Below, piece after piece: positions 1-28,107 of a stretch of DNA of 64,000 nucleotides. The stretch lies in the NCBI RefSeq assembly GCF_009914755.1, contig NC_060947.1; one strand, 5' to 3'. The translations under genes and the position numbers were made by a program. Numbering within the stretch: position 1 is the stretch's first letter; the number at the start of each line of letters is the position of its first letter. The notes under the pieces were generated by a model. That model had not been told where the DNA came from. It was given only the letters and a program-made list of their open reading frames with translations, and ran no database searches. This DNA comes from the human T2T-CHM13v2.0 reference genome, Homo sapiens.

Positions 1-865
1 GCAAGATAAATACAAAGAAATTAACACCTAAGATTCACTGTAGTAAAAATATAGAATACAAAAGACAAACTATATTAAAAACAATGTGAGAGAAAAAAAG
101 ATATCTTTGTAACTTGTCATAATAAAAAATGACAAAGTAGGCTGACACTGAACTTTTCAGTGGCAAAAATGGAACACAAATGACAATGGAATAAAATTTT
201 AAAGTATTAACAAAAATTGTCAGCCTAGCATTGTTTACTCAGTAAACTTCCACTCAAGAGAAAAAAGAAGAAAAAGTTATTTTCAGATACACACAACTAG
301 AAAGCATTTGCCACCAGTAGATGTAAACTAGAGGAACTATTCTTAAATGCTTATATTAAAAAATATTTAAAAGATGAATACTTAATTCACGGAACTTCAG
401 CCTAATAATTGCCAAGGGCAGGGGAGGGGAGAGATGATCTAAATATAATCCAGAGAAAGCAAAACAAAGGAGATAATAAAGAGCAGAAAATAATGAATTA
501 GGACACAAAGCTACAACTGAATAAAAAAATCCCAAATTTGATTCCTGAAAAACAGAGAGAGGTCGTAAAACTTGCCCAAAGTTACATGGATAATAAACAG
601 AAAAGTCAGGACTTAAATCTAAGCAGTCTTGTCTCTATACTTCAGGTATACTAAATGACCTCCCAAAAAAAGCTAAGCATAAAAAAAAAAGATTGCTCTA
701 TTTGACTATATTAATCTTCATGACCTTTATGTATCATAAAAACCATAAGACAAAATACATCCAACACATATAACTGAAAAAAGATCACTAATCAGAATAT
801 ATTTTAAAACTCCTACAAATCAATAAGACAACAACCCAATAGACAAATGGGCAAAAGTCAACAAT

Positions 866-4612
<3,747 letters not shown>

Positions 4613-12783: not shown

Positions 12784-13299
<516 letters not shown>

Positions 13300-16814: not shown

Positions 16815-18684
16815 TCTAAAGGAAAACAATCTGCATCATTAGTTCTTATAAAAATGTTCACTATCAAAATTGATTTCACAAATTAAATTTAGTGTCATTT
16901 ACATTGCTAGCTTTAATTCCAAAGGTCATTTATAATGTAACAATATTTTTTAGATAATTTTTCTTAATAAAAACTGCTTAACACTGCTTTTTGTAAATGC
17001 ATTTTTCACTAATTGCCAAAATTCATATACTACTCTGAGAGTTTGGAGGTATATATTCTGATATCATCTAGTACTGCTTCCCAATTAATAGTAATAACAA
17101 AGAAACACCTCAAAGTAAATGTGTCTTATGAATACCTTGTAACAGCCTTTTAGAGGAATCAAATGAAAAACTGAGGAACAGGTGTTTAATTTATTCAGCA
17201 CAGGTGTTCACCATTTATTTTTCAGCCATTTGCACCTTCTCTTACCCAATACGACTTGCTGCAGACATTGTATTCTTTTACTTTGATGTTTATACTTTGT
17301 TCTAAGGCCATTTATTTCTGATTTTCACAGTATATATTATACTGCTACCCAGCTGTTTATTCCTAAAATAAATGTTTAATGGCTATTCATAAGAATTACA
17401 AAAATCAGACTATTCAGAAATTGTTGTTCTACAAAATAGCAATATAAAAAGTGAAATCAATTTTGAATTGCTGCAATATGATACATTGGTAGATATATAT
17501 TTCCCAGTTTGTTACCAACCTAAAACGTTAACACATACTATAGAATACAGGTGAAATGTCAACCTCTTGTCATGTTTACCCAAGAACAAAACTTCATAAA
17601 ATGGTGTGCAGCAGGACTGTTGGTTGTCTACTCAACAACAAATACCCTTTTTCTCTTTGCTTTAAGAGCTCCAATTTTGTTCCAATATTAGAGAGAAGCT
17701 GCTCAGTCCTTGGGGATGGATCATGACAGATCAAAACCAATTATGATAATTTTACCTCCCTTTGCTGGTGTTTGATTTAGAAGTGAGTACATTATCCAGT
17801 TTCAGCCAATAAGATAATGATGAGTCTGCTGGGGGCCCTTGTTGAAGACTTTCCAGTAAAATAAAAAAGCATAAACATGTTAAGAAAACCTCTTCCCCTT
17901 TTCCTCATGTTTAGAAGTTTTTTTCTTATGTGAGAACCTCTTTGAAATCCTGGCAAACATCTTGTAACTCCAAATGGAAGGCTAAGAGAAGTGTGGAGTG
18001 CTGCCCCAGGGCTCTGATGGGCTGAAGCAGCACAATTACAAATCCTCTACCTACCCACCCACCCACTTACCTATGGACTTGTTTAAACCACATTTAGTTG
18101 GGCAGTGTTTCAATTCTGGCCTAAAACACACTTAACTGTAGACAGTGATGAGTAATTTCCTCTAAACTGTAAAAATTACAGGTGATTTTACATTTTATTT
18201 GTATTCGCTTCATCTAAATTAGAAGTATTAGTGTTCGAGAAGCTCCTGTTGCTTGTATAATTTTTAAGTGGAAATTTAAGAATTCAAAATAAATCAGTAG
18301 AATTTTAGATTCCTATTGCAAAAAAATCTTTATTTTTGGTATGAATACATTAGAGTTGGTTCATTTGAAGGTAACAAATAAGTTTTCATCCTGCTTTAAT
18401 ATTATACCAGAAAAAGGGAAACAACGTTCAGTACAATGCAGAAAATAGGACAGAAAATGTATAAAGCTATTGTTAATATTTTAGAAAGATAAAATCTCTT
18501 CTCACTAAAGAAACTAGATGACTTTATGCAATTAACAAGCAACGATATTTTACCTAAGAATAACTTGAGTTTGTGTGATTTAAGTGTGAATTAATATATT
18601 GCACCTTTTTATAGTCTGTTCAAGATCTAAAACTAGAAACAATAGCTACTTTTATTTCCCCACATAAACTATGAAACTATTACA

Positions 18685-19450
18685 TGGTAAGAAAGAAGAA
18701 CTCTCACACACTGTTGGTAGGAATGCAAATCAGTACAGCCATTATGGAAAACAGTACAGAAGTTCCTCAAAAAATTAAAAATAAATCTATCATATGATCC
18801 AGCAATCTTCACCCTCACTACTGGGTATATAGCCAAAGGAAATGAAATCAGTAGGTTGAAGAGACATCTGCACTCCCATGTTTATTGGAGCACTATTCAC
18901 AATTGCGAAAATATGGAATCAACTTAAATGCCCATCAACAAATGAATTAACAAGGAAAATGTGGCATATATACACAATAGAATACTGCACAGCCATAAAA
19001 AAAATTAAATCCTGTCATTTGTGACAACATGGATGAGCCTGGAGAACATTATATTAAGTGAAATAAGCTGAGAACAGAAAGAAAAATACTGAATGATCTC
19101 ACTCATATGTGAAATCTAAAAAACTTGATAGTGGTTACCAGAGACTGGGGAGAACAGGAGGGAGGGGAAGATGAGGAGAGGTTGGTCAATGGGTATAATG
19201 TTACAGTTAGGTAGGAGGAATACATTCTGGTACTCTATCACACAGTAAGGTGAGTATAGCTAACAATAATGCATTGCATATTTCAAATAGCTAAAAGAGA
19301 TGATTCTGAATGTTCTCACAAAAAATAATAAAGGTTTAAGGTGATGGATATGCTAATTAGCCTAATTTGATCATTCTACAATGTTTATATGTACCAAAAC
19401 ATATTGTATCCCATGAATATATACAATTATTATGTATCAATTTAAAAAAT
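18685..19450 (+). mobile_element. L1MA 3' end
   Basis: Contains catatgatccagcaatc, acaacatggatgagcctggag and ggtgatggatatgctaatt. Confidence 0.8.
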
Positions 19451-20783
19451 CCCATGGCATATAAACTGGTCTCAACAACTAAAGAATATTGGATTCTTCC
19501 CATAGCTTCCTAACACTGGGAGTTAGGCACTTTAATTTCTCATTACAGATATAACTACATTACAATACTATATAGTATTCCAGTAAATTAAAGAAGTAAA
19601 TGCACTTTCTTAGGTGCTAGTCTTCACAAAGGAAATACTTAATTCACTTGGTGGAACGGTTGGTTCCCTTGATGTGCATACATGTGTTTACCTGATGACT
19701 GAAATACAACATGATACACTGGAAATAGCACACGTTTTTGAGTTAGAAAAACACAAGTTCAAATTTGGCTCTGCTATCTCTAGCATTCCTTGAGCTTCTG
19801 TTTGTCAGTAAGATGTACCTATAGCTCATGCACATGACTGCTGCACAGAATAAATGAAATTAATATGTAAAGCAACAGGTTACAGCAGTTGCCACAAAGA
19901 TAATATCCAATAAACACTAGTCCTTTTTCATTTCCCTTCCATAACTCGATTGTGTAATCACAAAAAATCACTTCAATGAAAAACAATCTTTGTGTAGCAA
20001 AAATATTTTAGGTCCAAAATATTAAGTAGCCCACTTATTGTAAGGAAGAATCAGGAAAACAAAGCTCTGATAAAACAATCTGGATAGTTCTTTACAGTCT
20101 ATGATGTTTGAACCTAGCCTATGATAGAATAATTACTACAATTTACATTTTAGTCTTTAGCCTGTTTTGCAATACCCAACGTATTAAATTTAATGTTGAA
20201 ATGATCATGAAAACCTTTAAGTTGAATAATACTTCAGAATACTTTTTAAATAAGTCATGGTAATCAAAAAATAACTATCCTATATATTTATATTAGAATA
20301 CATAATATATAAATACACCCTATATATTTATATTAGAATACATATATTAGAATTATATTGCCCAAATACTTTGACGTATTTTCCAAGCAGTGGTAATGGG
20401 TTTGCACTAATCCATTTGAATTCTCGCCTAGTCCTCCTTGCAATCAAATGTAAAATATTAGAATGCTATCGGTGTGTCCGGAATTGGTGGGTTCTTGGTC
20501 TCACTGACTTAAAGAATGAAGCCGCGGACCCGCGCGGTGAGTGTTACAGCTCTTAAGGTGGCACGTCTGGAGTTTGTTCCTTCTGATGTTCAGATGTGTT
20601 CGGAGTTTCTTCCTTCTGGTGGGTTCGTGGTCTCGCTGGCTCAGGAGTGAAGCTGCAGACCTTCGCGGTGAATGTTACAGCTCTTAAGGCAGAGCGTCTG
20701 GAGTTGTTCGTTCCTCCCGGTGGGCTTGTGGTCTCGGTGGGCGCAGGAGTGAAGCTGCAGATCTTCGCGGTGAGTGTTACAGC

Positions 20784-20802
20784 TCATAAAAGCAGCGTGG
20801 AC
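20784..20802 (-). CDS. CHM: Coding part of an alternative CHM terminal exon inside LTR12C (short isoform ending ...FCYARSTLLL*)
   Basis: Minus strand reads gtctttAG|G TCC ACG CTG CTT TTA TGA. Spliced to exon 4 (ends ...GCC AG) this gives R-S-T-L-L-L-stop, a 110-aa product. This matches my recollection of the annotated short CHM isoform C-terminus. Confidence 0.8.
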
Positions 20803-20825
20803 CTAAAGACCGAGCAGCAGCAAGA

Positions 20826-21440
20826 TTTATTGCAAAGAGCAAAAGAGCAAAGCCTCCACAGTGTGGAAGGGGACCGGAGCTGGTTGCCACTGCTGGCTGG
20901 GCAGCCTGCTTTTATTGTCTTATCTGGCCCCACCCACATCCCGCTGATTGGTAGAGCCAAGTGGTCTGTTTTGACAGGGTGCTGATTGGTGCGTTTACAA
21001 TCCCTGAGCTAGATATAAAGGTTCTCCACATCCCCATCAGATTAGTTAGATACAGAGTATAGATACAAAGGTTCTCCAAGGCCCCACCAGAGCAGCTAGA
21101 TACAGAGTGTCGATTGGTGCATTCACAAACCTTGAGCGAAACACAGGGTGCTGATTGGTGTGTTTACAAACCTTGAGCTAGATACAGAGTGCCAATTGGT
21201 GTATTTACAATCCCTGAGCTAGACACAAAGGTTCTCCAAGGCCCCACCAGAGCAGCTAGATACAGAGTGTCGATTGGTGCACTCACAAACCTTGAGCTAA
21301 ACACAGGGTGCTGACTGGTGTGTTTACAATCCCTGAGCTAGACATAAAGGTTCTCCAAGGCCCCACCACAGCAGCTAGATACAGAGTGTCGATTGGTGCA
21401 CTCACAAACCCTGAGCTAGACACAGGGTGCTGATTGGTGT
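20826..21440 (-). promoter_or_regulatory. LTR12C enhancer/promoter: CCAAT (NF-Y) array, AATAAA-type TATA box and LTR polyA signal
   Basis: Eight ATTGG on the plus strand (CCAAT on minus) in ~40-bp repeats between 20947 and 21438. AATAAA on minus at 20911-20916 (ERV9 TATA position) and at 20826-20831 (polyA signal position). Confidence 0.75.
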
Positions 21441-22234
21441 ATTTACAATCCCTGAGCTAGATATAAAGACTCTCCACGTCCCCACCAGACTCAGGAGCCC
21501 AGCTGGCTTCACCCAGTGGATCCCGCACCAGGGCTGCAGGTGGAGCTGCCTGCCAGTCCCGCGCCATGCGCTCACACTCCTCAGCCCTTGGGCGGTTGAT
21601 GGGACTGGGCGCCGTGGAGCAGGGGGCGGCATTTGTCGGGGAGGCTCGGGCTGCACAGGAACCCACGGAGGCGGGGGAAGGCTCAGGCATGGCGGGCTGC
21701 AGTCCCGAGGCCTGCCCCGTGGGAAGGCAGCTAAGGCCCGGTGAGAAATTGACCACAGCGCCGGTGGGCTGGCACTGCTGGGGGACCCAGTACACCCTCC
21801 GCAGCCACTGGCCCGGGTGCTAAGCCCCTCACTGCCCGGGGCCGGCAGGGCTGGCCGGCCGCTCCGAGTGCGGGGCCCGCCAAGCCCACGCCCACCCGGA
21901 ACTCCAGCTGGCCCGCAAGCGCCACGCGCAGCCCCAGTTCCCGCTCGTGCCTCTCCCTCGACACCTCCCTGCAAGCTGAGGGAGCCAGCTCTGGCCTTGC
22001 CAGCCCAGAAAGGGGCTCCCACAGTGCAGCGGCGGGCCGAAGGGCTCCTCAAGTGCCGCCAAAGTGGGAACCCAGGCAGAGGAGGCGCCGAGAGCAAGCG
22101 AGGGCTCTGAGGACTGCCAGCACGCTGTCACCTCTCATCGGTATGGCTATGACATTGTTTATAACCAAGAAATACACATTTTACTCTTCCTTAATGTTAA
22201 ATAATCAAGTGGCATATATGAAAATCAAACCATA

Positions 22235-27954: not shown

Positions 27955-28107
<153 letters not shown>

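What the first reader, a model, noticed from the sequence alone, without database searches (positions are those of the whole stretch)
20473..20831. An apparent single substitution in a solo LTR12C creates a splice acceptor and a truncating CHM terminal exon
Seen: the minus strand reads ...ctgctgctcggtctttAG|GTCCACGCTGCTTTTATGA. Spliced to exon 4 this encodes ...FCYA-RSTLLL*, 110 aa lacking most of REP1. Recalled: a short CHM isoform with this C-terminus is annotated, and the LTR12C consensus here is GGACCCAAAGAG (plus sense) whereas this copy reads GGACCTAAAGAC. Inference: a copy-specific C>T at 20804 made the AG, so the isoform is a young, ape-lineage exonisation of the LTR R/U5 region that could divert transcripts from full-length REP1. 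Candidate downstream polyA signals on minus are ATTAAA at 20189-20194 and 19531-19536 and AATAAA at 18881-18886.
Basis: partly seen in the sequence, partly recalled or inferred. Interest (0 to 1): 0.8.

Follow-up and report, generated by a model that had tools for sequence, protein, structure and literature searches.

The report
Known LTR12C-derived CHM terminal exon
A retroviral LTR in intron 4 of the human CHM gene carries a one-base change that makes a splice acceptor and yields the short 110-residue REP1 isoform b, a case already published in 2011.

Summary
On the minus strand a 1665-base solo LTR (20473-22137) is flanked by a CCGA duplication. It reads ...ctcggtctttAG|GTCC, and splicing CHM exon 4 to 20802 gives ...FCYA-RSTLLL*, 110 residues. 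This is the known CHM isoform b (NM_001145414). Jung et al. 2011 (Gene 489:1-5) attributed it to an LTR12C splice site in intron 4, and several reviews repeat this.

- None of the 29 closest full-length LTR copies in the same genome has A at that base (28 GG, 1 GA).
- Genome-wide, the same 30-mer occurs 336 times with G and 10 times with A, the window's copy included.
- In a tree built without that column, the CHM copy nests inside G-only groups, away from the nine other A-bearing copies. An AU test rejects a single A clade (p 1e-5).

So the A is private to this copy but has arisen elsewhere too. The ape-lineage timing and actual usage could not be tested.

Verdict: real, ordinary and already known.

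The parts
20473..22137 (-). Solo LTR of the ERV9/LTR12 family (called LTR12C in print), 1665 bases, TG...CA ends, in the same orientation as CHM
   Evidence: Searches show the ends TGAGAGG... and ...CCGGACACA. In one search, the 29 other loci returned match at 89-93% identity over nearly the whole 1665 bases (q 1-1665 for most). The review table lists an LTR12C of the same length (hg38 chrX:85971257-85972921) as the CHM splice acceptor.
22138..22141 (-). Target-site duplication CCGA, 5' side
   Evidence: read directly
20469..20472 (-). Target-site duplication CCGA, 3' side
   Evidence: read directly
20826..20831 (-). The LTR's own AATAAA hexamer, at -24 to -29 of the acceptor. It holds three of the five adenines between -18 and -40 (the other two, at -28 and -29 within the same hexamer run gcAAtAAA, adjoin them), so it is the likely branch-site region (inference).
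   Evidence: The adenine count was read from the 40 nt printed.
20805..20825 (-). Pyrimidine-rich stretch between the hexamer and the AG, with no AG inside it. Most other copies share it.
   Evidence: 15 of 20 pyrimidines at -23..-4; the codons over 20812-20853 are shared by 87-115 of 116-119 copies.
20803..20804 (-). AG splice acceptor. Base 20804 (A on minus, T on plus) is the rare, copy-private state.
18310..20802 (-). Alternative terminal exon of CHM isoform b, 2493 nt. Only 20473-20802 (330 nt) is LTR; the remaining 2163 nt are ordinary intron sequence.
   Evidence: Supplied annotation; length 2493; a 2856-base, 5-exon transcript whose last exon lies in intron 4
20784..20802 (-). Coding part of the terminal exon: G completing AGG (R), then S T L L L, then the stop TGA at 20784-20786
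   Evidence: (RSTLLL and a new stop in print)
18329..18334 (-). AATAAA 19 nt upstream of the annotated transcript end (18310)
27983..28107 (-). CHM exon 4 (REP1 residues 64-104 plus 2 nt). Its donor GT at 27982-27981 is shared by both isoforms.
13267..13269 (-). Competing constitutive acceptor of exon 5 (AG at 13269-13268, first exon base 13267)

Best explanation
A solo ERV9/LTR12-family LTR lies in the sense orientation in CHM intron 4. Like its relatives, it carries a pyrimidine-rich stretch just downstream of its own AATAAA. In this copy one transition, G to A on the minus strand at 20804 (C to T on plus), turned ...tttGG|gtcc into ...tttAG|GTCC, completing a 3' splice site. The exon 4 donor can then pair with this acceptor instead of the exon 5 acceptor 7.5 kb further on. 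The reading frame continues for six codons (RSTLLL) to a TGA inside the LTR. The transcript runs on through 2.2 kb of ordinary intron and is cleaved 19 nt after an AATAAA at 18329-18334. Because the stop lies in the last exon, the mRNA should escape nonsense-mediated decay (an established rule, applied by inference). The product is REP1 residues 1-104 plus 6. It lacks nearly the whole protein, so it is very unlikely to escort Rab proteins (inference). The most plausible effect is a modest, context-dependent loss of full-length transcripts. Shown here: the anatomy, the reading frame and the copy-private origin of the AG. Taken from annotation and print: that the junction is used. Inferred: the branch site in the AATAAA region, escape from decay and the lack of function.
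For: Known isoform:
- PMC4517409 (passage) gives NM_001145414.2 as 2856 bases, 5 exons and 110 aa, with the last exon lying in intron 4.
- PMC11007075 (passage) says a solitary LTR12C in intron 4 provides the alternative splice site, RSTLLL and a new stop.

Origin of the AG:
- Of 120 related spurious ORFs from other LTR copies, 119 cover the site codon. 110 read P (C at the site base) and 3 read L like the window.
- Of the 29 best 181-nt matches in the same genome, 27 read GG and 2 read AG.
- The exact 30-mer occurs 336 times with G and 10 times with A, the window included. The reversed-pattern controls gave 0.
- Of the 29 best full-length matches, 28 read GG, 1 reads GA and none has the A.
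- In a 44-row ML tree built without the site column, the window's copy lies in nested starred sets of 4, 7 and 8 rows whose other members all have G. The other nine A-bearing copies lie across a 93/93 branch.
- An AU test rejects one clade of all A-bearing copies (lnL difference 99, p 1.1e-5).

The pyrimidine tract and the hexamer are shared with most copies. The only other rare codons within 50 nt upstream are 20809-20811 and 20854-20856.
Against: - No RNA data could be examined, so use of the junction rests on the supplied annotation and on reviews of a paper I could not read.
- The sequence alone does not single out this AG: 38 of 921 AGs in the intron pass a crude filter.
- The first, sparser tree put the copy in a starred 8-row set with 5 A-bearing and 3 G-bearing copies, where one ancestral A is as parsimonious as three gains. 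Only the wider sampling dissolved this.
- The genome search scores only 40 of 2191 or 4013 candidates, so closer A-bearing relatives could have been missed. The exhaustive pattern scan found only nine other A-bearing copies, and all nine are in the tree.
- 'After insertion' as opposed to 'in a private source lineage just before insertion' cannot be told apart without orthologues.
Confidence: 0.85

Rival explanations
1. The A was not a mutation of this copy. The LTR was inserted by an ERV9 lineage that already carried the A, so the acceptor arrived ready-made with the insertion.
For: A-bearing elements did propagate. L034 and L035 (5.9 kb apart on C23) both carry A and are sisters at 100/100. 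L032 and L033, on different chromosomes, form an A-only starred pair. In the sparse tree the window's copy sat in a starred set with 5 A-bearing and 3 G-bearing rows.
Against: None of the 29 nearest full-length relatives has the A. With these added, the copy nests in G-only starred sets and all other A-bearing copies lie elsewhere. The AU test rejects a single A clade. None of the nine other A-bearing copies shares the window's G at -8 next to the site; all nine read CTCTTTAG against the window's GTCTTTAG.
Confidence: 0.07
2. The A was copied in by non-allelic gene conversion from another A-bearing LTR, for example one of the four others on the X chromosome.
For: Five of the ten A-bearing 30-mers lie on C23. 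Gene conversion among LTRs is reported (PMC4921805, title and abstract seen in the listing).
Against: The window's rare bases at -8 and -9 are in none of the nine A-bearing copies, so any conversion tract would have to end within about 5 nt of the site. Three of the four other X copies belong to one lineage in the 34-row tree (L034 and L035, with L036 as sister at 98/90), which largely explains the excess on X. That sister link is unresolved in the 44-row tree.
Confidence: 0.03
3. The short isoform is a regulated, functional product rather than a by-product. It would act as a lineage-specific brake on REP1 dosage, or the 110-residue peptide would have an activity of its own.
For: Reviews report, citing Jung 2011, higher isoform b levels in colon, lung and testis tumours than in adjacent tissue. 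The stop lies in the last exon, so the mRNA should be stable (inference).
Against: The product keeps only residues 1-104 of a protein of 650-653 residues. PMC4517409 says no disease mutation is reported in this exon. Nothing here measures how much it is used or whether it is conserved.
Confidence: 0.1

Closest known systems
CHM transcript variant 2 / isoform b (NM_001145414), LTR12C-derived last exon: Jung et al. 2011, Gene 489:1-5
   Same: It is the same locus, the same acceptor, the same RSTLLL* ending and the same 110 residues.
   Different: Nothing differs in kind. I could not read the 2011 paper, so it may already show this.
CHM c.315-4587T>A deep-intronic pseudoexon (choroideremia)
   Same: It lies in the same intron and works the same way: one base change creates an AG after a T-rich stretch. 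In the window the T at 17855 sits in ttttttattttacTgg, and an A there would give a 98-nt exon (17853-17756) followed by gtaaaa. This matches the published 98-bp size.
   Different: It is a rare pathogenic allele that makes an internal exon which disrupts REP1, and it is not in the LTR. The LTR acceptor is the reference state and makes a terminal exon.
Exonisation of transposable elements by a single splice-site-creating mutation (classic Alu cases; recalled, not looked up here)
   Same: A pre-existing pyrimidine-rich stretch in a repeat needs only one base change to become a 3' splice site.
   Different: Those cases mostly involve antisense Alu elements and internal cassette exons. Here a sense-oriented LTR is involved, its R/U5 border region is used, and the result is an alternative last exon. 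The review read calls LTR12-derived splice sites uncommon.
LTRs that supply polyadenylation signals to host genes (HHLA2/HHLA3, HERV-K-T47D; seen only as titles in the reference list of PMC11853044)
   Same: A sense-oriented LTR truncates a host transcript.
   Different: Here the LTR's own AATAAA (20826-20831) lies in the intron, upstream of the acceptor. The annotated 3' end instead uses a non-LTR AATAAA 2.5 kb downstream.

Membership tests
ERV9 / LTR12-family solo LTR (LTR12C in print) | Full-length similarity to many dispersed genomic LTR copies | tested here: met
   In one search, 4013 first-look candidates were found. The 29 other loci returned match at 89-93% identity over nearly the whole 1665 bases (q 1-1665 for most).
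ERV9 / LTR12-family solo LTR (LTR12C in print) | TG...CA termini and a short target-site duplication directly flanking a single LTR, with no internal proviral sequence | tested here: met
   Searches show TGAGAGG...GGACACA with CCGA on both sides (22138-22141 and 20469-20472). The flanks are an Alu-like stretch and unique intron. A 4-base match alone has a chance of 1 in 256.
ERV9 / LTR12-family solo LTR (LTR12C in print) | Assignment to subfamily C rather than another LTR12 subfamily | not testable with these tools
   No Dfam or Repbase library is on hand. The label comes from print: where the listed hg38 interval has the identical length of 1665 bases.
TE-derived alternative terminal exon (CHM isoform b) | AG acceptor with an upstream pyrimidine tract and no intervening AG | tested here: met
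   15 of 20 pyrimidines at -23..-4, within the range of the six constitutive CHM acceptors in the window (12-16 of 20). No AG occurs between -24 and -3.
TE-derived alternative terminal exon (CHM isoform b) | In-frame junction with exon 4 giving the annotated C-terminus and length | tested here: met
   Searches give ...FCYARSTLLL*, 104 + 6 residues. One search gives 110 aa in print.
TE-derived alternative terminal exon (CHM isoform b) | Polyadenylation signal at the annotated 3' end | tested here: met
   AATAAA at 18329-18334, 19 nt before 18310.
TE-derived alternative terminal exon (CHM isoform b) | Junction seen in RNA (27983 joined to 20802) | not testable with these tools
   No RNA data are available. 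The junction rests on the supplied RefSeq table and on reviews that cite the qPCR work of Jung 2011.

The most novel reading that the evidence does not exclude
The G-to-A change may be recent (human, or human and African apes only). It would make CHM isoform b a lineage-specific terminal-exon trap in which the LTR's own AAUAAA serves as the branch-site region, so that cleavage at the LTR and splicing into it compete on the same 30 nt. The nine other A-bearing LTR12 copies would then be a small class of latent traps of the same kind in other genes.
Probability: 0.12. Interest if true: 0.4.

Novelty: already known. Interest (0 to 1): 0.15.

Why it matters
CHM is the choroideremia gene, so any route that ends its transcripts after exon 4 bears on how much REP1 is made and on how intron 4 variants are read. 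This route has been in RefSeq and in print since 2011.
- a base-level test that one private transition in the LTR made the acceptor;
- the count of sister copies with the same change (nine);
- the note that the annotated 3' end uses a signal outside the LTR.

These are useful for annotation and for anyone screening LTR12 copies for cryptic acceptors. They do not change what is known.

Tried and rejected
- The genome search on the window's own genome failed three times for machine reasons before it answered.
- No second LTR copy lies in the window.
- A 26-base stretch of the LTR had no exact match in viral contigs or genome contigs, so no copies from other sources came that way.
- Jung et al. 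2011 is not held. I saw only what four reviews and two reference lists say of it.
- The search for 'c.315-4587T' found nothing. The form '315-4587' found 3 papers, of which I read one passage.
- The search for choroideremia + 'isoform b' + REP1 gave 2 unrelated papers.
- Orthologues from other primates could not be reached. The best protein-database hit to the ORF spanning the site is 79-81% identical over most of its length, so none of the listed hits is an orthologue.
- I dropped the idea that the LTR's own AATAAA ends the transcript, because it lies upstream of the acceptor.
- I did not try to date the copy beyond quoting its terminal branch (0.036). CpG decay makes such an estimate unreliable.
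- Rows dropped before the tree: L003 (only 485 bases matched), L007 (3017 bases, apparently more than one copy) and L008 (partial).
- For the tree I used 5 of the 24 G-bearing rows (L005, L006, L012, L015, L018), plus all 29 loci and all nine other A-bearing copies.

Full report
**What is in the sequence**

On the minus strand the window reads ...gcaataaatcttgctgctgctcggtctttag|gtccacgctgcttttatgagctg. The AG is at 20804-20803 and the first exon base is 20802. Exon 4 of CHM (27983-28107) ends ...tgttatgccag|gtatga.

Translated from its first base, exon 4 matches rat REP1 residues 64-104 in two solved structures (1ltx, 1vg0; E 6e-16). That fixes the frame without relying on memory. A script that spliced the window's exons by coordinates gave ...[13 protein letters not shown] for exon 3 + exon 4 + the exon starting at 20802, and an open REP1 frame for exon 3 + 4 + 5. 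The isoform therefore has 104 + 6 = 110 residues, with the stop TGA at 20786-20784.

**The element**

The repeat runs on the minus strand from TGAGAGG... at 22137 to ...CCGGACACA at 20473, which is 1665 bases. CCGA flanks it on both sides, at 22138-22141 and 20469-20472. It is a solo LTR in the same orientation as CHM.

A search of the window's own genome gave 4013 first-look candidates. The 29 other loci returned match at 89-93% identity over nearly the whole length. I could not test the subfamily label 'LTR12C' because no repeat library is on hand. [quoted passage not shown]

**The terminal exon**

The supplied annotation gives the exon as 18310-20802, which is 2493 nt. Only its first 330 nt (20802-20473) are LTR. 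The remaining 2163 nt are ordinary intron.

The minus strand of 18250-20850 holds seven polyA hexamers:
- 20826-20831, the LTR's own, which lies upstream of the acceptor and so in the intron;
- 18651-18656, 18395-18400 and 18329-18334.

**Already in print**

A search for LTR12C + CHM found 7 papers. All of them cite Jung et al. [quoted passage not shown] That paper is not held. From the others I read passages only:
- PMC11007075 says intron 4 holds a solitary LTR12C that provides an alternative splice site, six residues (RSTLLL) and a new stop.
- PMC9502224, PMC9385571 and PMC12255080 repeat the tumour-marker point.
- PMC5386492 and PMC4921805 hold it only in their reference lists.
- PMC4517409 describes NM_001145414.2 as 2856 bases, 5 exons and 110 aa, with its last exon in intron 4 and no disease mutation reported in it.

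The exonisation is therefore known.

**Testing the single-base origin: protein-level proxy**

Before the genome search answered, I used a plus-strand open frame (20590-20985, 131 aa) that crosses the site with codon CTA (L) at 20803-20805. It has 3223 database relatives at E of 1e-3 or better. These are evidently spurious ORFs over other LTR copies.

Of the best 120, 119 cover the codon: 110 read P, 3 L, 2 Q, 2 T, 1 R and 1 A. P means C at the middle base, which is G on the minus strand and so no AG. Because the hits were ranked by likeness to the window, any bias favours L.

**Testing the single-base origin: DNA level in the same genome**

- Of the 29 best matches to 181 bases around the site, 27 read GG and 2 read AG.
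- An exact 30-mer spanning the site, with one N at a CpG-decay position, occurs 10 times with A, the window included, and 336 times with G. The reversed-pattern controls gave 0.
- Of the 29 best matches to the whole LTR, chosen without regard to the site, 28 read GG, 1 reads GA and none has the A.

**Private change or A-bearing lineage?**

The A is not unique to this copy, so I asked whether the CHM copy belongs to an A-bearing lineage.

A first tree had 34 rows: all 10 A-bearing copies and 24 G-bearing copies, with the site column removed. L003, L007 and L008 were dropped as partial or compound. It put the CHM copy next to two G-bearing copies, but inside a starred 8-row set with 5 A-bearing and 3 G-bearing rows, where one ancestral A is as parsimonious as three gains.

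With the 29 nearest full-length relatives added (44 rows), the CHM copy lies in nested starred sets of 4 rows (99/80), 7 rows (95/86) and 8 rows (95/84). All other members of these sets have G. The nine other A-bearing copies lie across a 93/93 branch. An AU test rejects a tree that holds all A-bearing copies together (lnL lower by 99, p 1.1e-5).

Some other A-bearing copies did inherit the base. L034 and L035, 5.9 kb apart on the X chromosome, are sisters at 100/100, and L032 and L033 form a starred pair. The same transition has thus arisen or spread several times, and in the CHM copy it stands alone among its kin. It is not a CpG change: the context is tttGgg on the minus strand.

**What else differs near the acceptor**

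At the codon level, only three codons in 20770-20868 are rare among the copies (shared by fewer than 10%): the site itself, 20809-20811 (-7 to -9) and 20854-20856. At the DNA level, most copies read CACTCTTTGG where the window reads CGGTCTTTAG. The changes at -9 and -8 put purines into the tract and cannot have helped.

Most copies share the pyrimidine stretch and the AATAAA. The LTR was one base short of a 3' splice site.

Between -18 and -40 the only adenines are those at -24, -25, -26, -28 and -29, in and beside the AATAAA (read). The branch point is probably there. This is an inference and is untested.

**How distinctive the site is**

By a crude filter (at least 15 of 20 pyrimidines at -23..-4 and no AG in the preceding 20 nt), 38 of 921 AGs in intron 4 qualify. 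The sequence alone would not identify this one. Its status rests on the annotation and the literature.

**Age**

The review says ERV9/LTR12 entered about 30 million years ago. It adds that the main expansion fell between the split of lesser apes and the divergence of gorillas, and that many human LTR12C copies are shared with chimpanzee and gorilla but absent from macaques. The CHM copy's terminal branch is 0.036 changes per column against a median of 0.048, which is ordinary for the family.

This makes an ape-age insertion plausible. It says nothing about when the G-to-A change happened.

**Mechanism and function**

The shared exon 4 donor chooses between this acceptor and the exon 5 acceptor at 13267. 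The stop is in the last exon, so the mRNA should escape nonsense-mediated decay (an established rule, applied by inference). The product keeps REP1 residues 1-104 of about 650 and is very unlikely to escort Rab proteins (inference). Whether it diverts a meaningful share of transcripts was not testable here.

**Context in the same intron**

The published choroideremia variant c.315-4587T>A, which makes a 98-bp pseudoexon (PMC7610829, passage), maps to the T at 17855. An A there gives ...tttacAG|G and a 98-nt exon (17853-17756) followed by gtaaaa. A naive count from exon 5 lands on 17854, a one-base offset I cannot resolve. It is a second case of a single base making an AG in this intron, about 455 nt beyond the end of the isoform b exon.

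**Verdict**

The feature is real, correctly read and ordinary in kind, and it has been described since 2011. The base-level origin is supported here. The timing and the usage remain open.

Noticed in passing
window 17756-17855 (minus strand): The known pathogenic deep-intronic CHM variant c.315-4587T>A (98-bp pseudoexon, PMC7610829 passage) fits the T at 17855. An A there makes ...tttacAG|G, and 98 nt later comes GAG|gtaaaa. Counting from exon 5 gives 17854, one base off. It is the same intron and the same AG-creating mechanism as the LTR acceptor.
   Followed up: partly
G000 places listed; loci L002, L019, L031-L037: Nine other LTR12-family copies in this genome carry the same A, and so an AG after the same pyrimidine stretch. 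Four of them are on the X chromosome. Whether any lies in sense orientation inside a gene and is used as an acceptor was not checked.
   Followed up: no
L034 and L035 (G000:C23:73606057-73608036 and 73611974-73613953): These two A-bearing LTRs lie 5.9 kb apart on the same strand and are sisters at 100/100. They look like the two LTRs of one element, so there the A was present at integration or spread by conversion. The sequence between them was not examined.
   Followed up: no
window 20473-20809: NCBI's soft-mask covers the LTR only from 20810 to 22140. The last 337 bases of the LTR, which form the start of the isoform b exon, are not listed as masked, although the 30-mer at the acceptor alone has 346 near-identical copies in the genome. 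The mask makes the exon look unique when it is not.
   Followed up: partly
window 20500-20790 (minus strand): The U5 part of the LTR holds three imperfect tandem units, each starting gagctgtaaca(c/t)tcaccgcg. In one search the second and third units produced secondary matches next to most hits.
   Followed up: no
window 20590-20985 (plus strand): A 131-codon open frame on the antisense strand of the LTR has 3223 relatives (E of 1e-3 or better) in the protein database. Most come from short contigs of metagenome sources. These look like spurious gene calls on primate LTR DNA, probably host contamination in metagenomes.
   Followed up: partly
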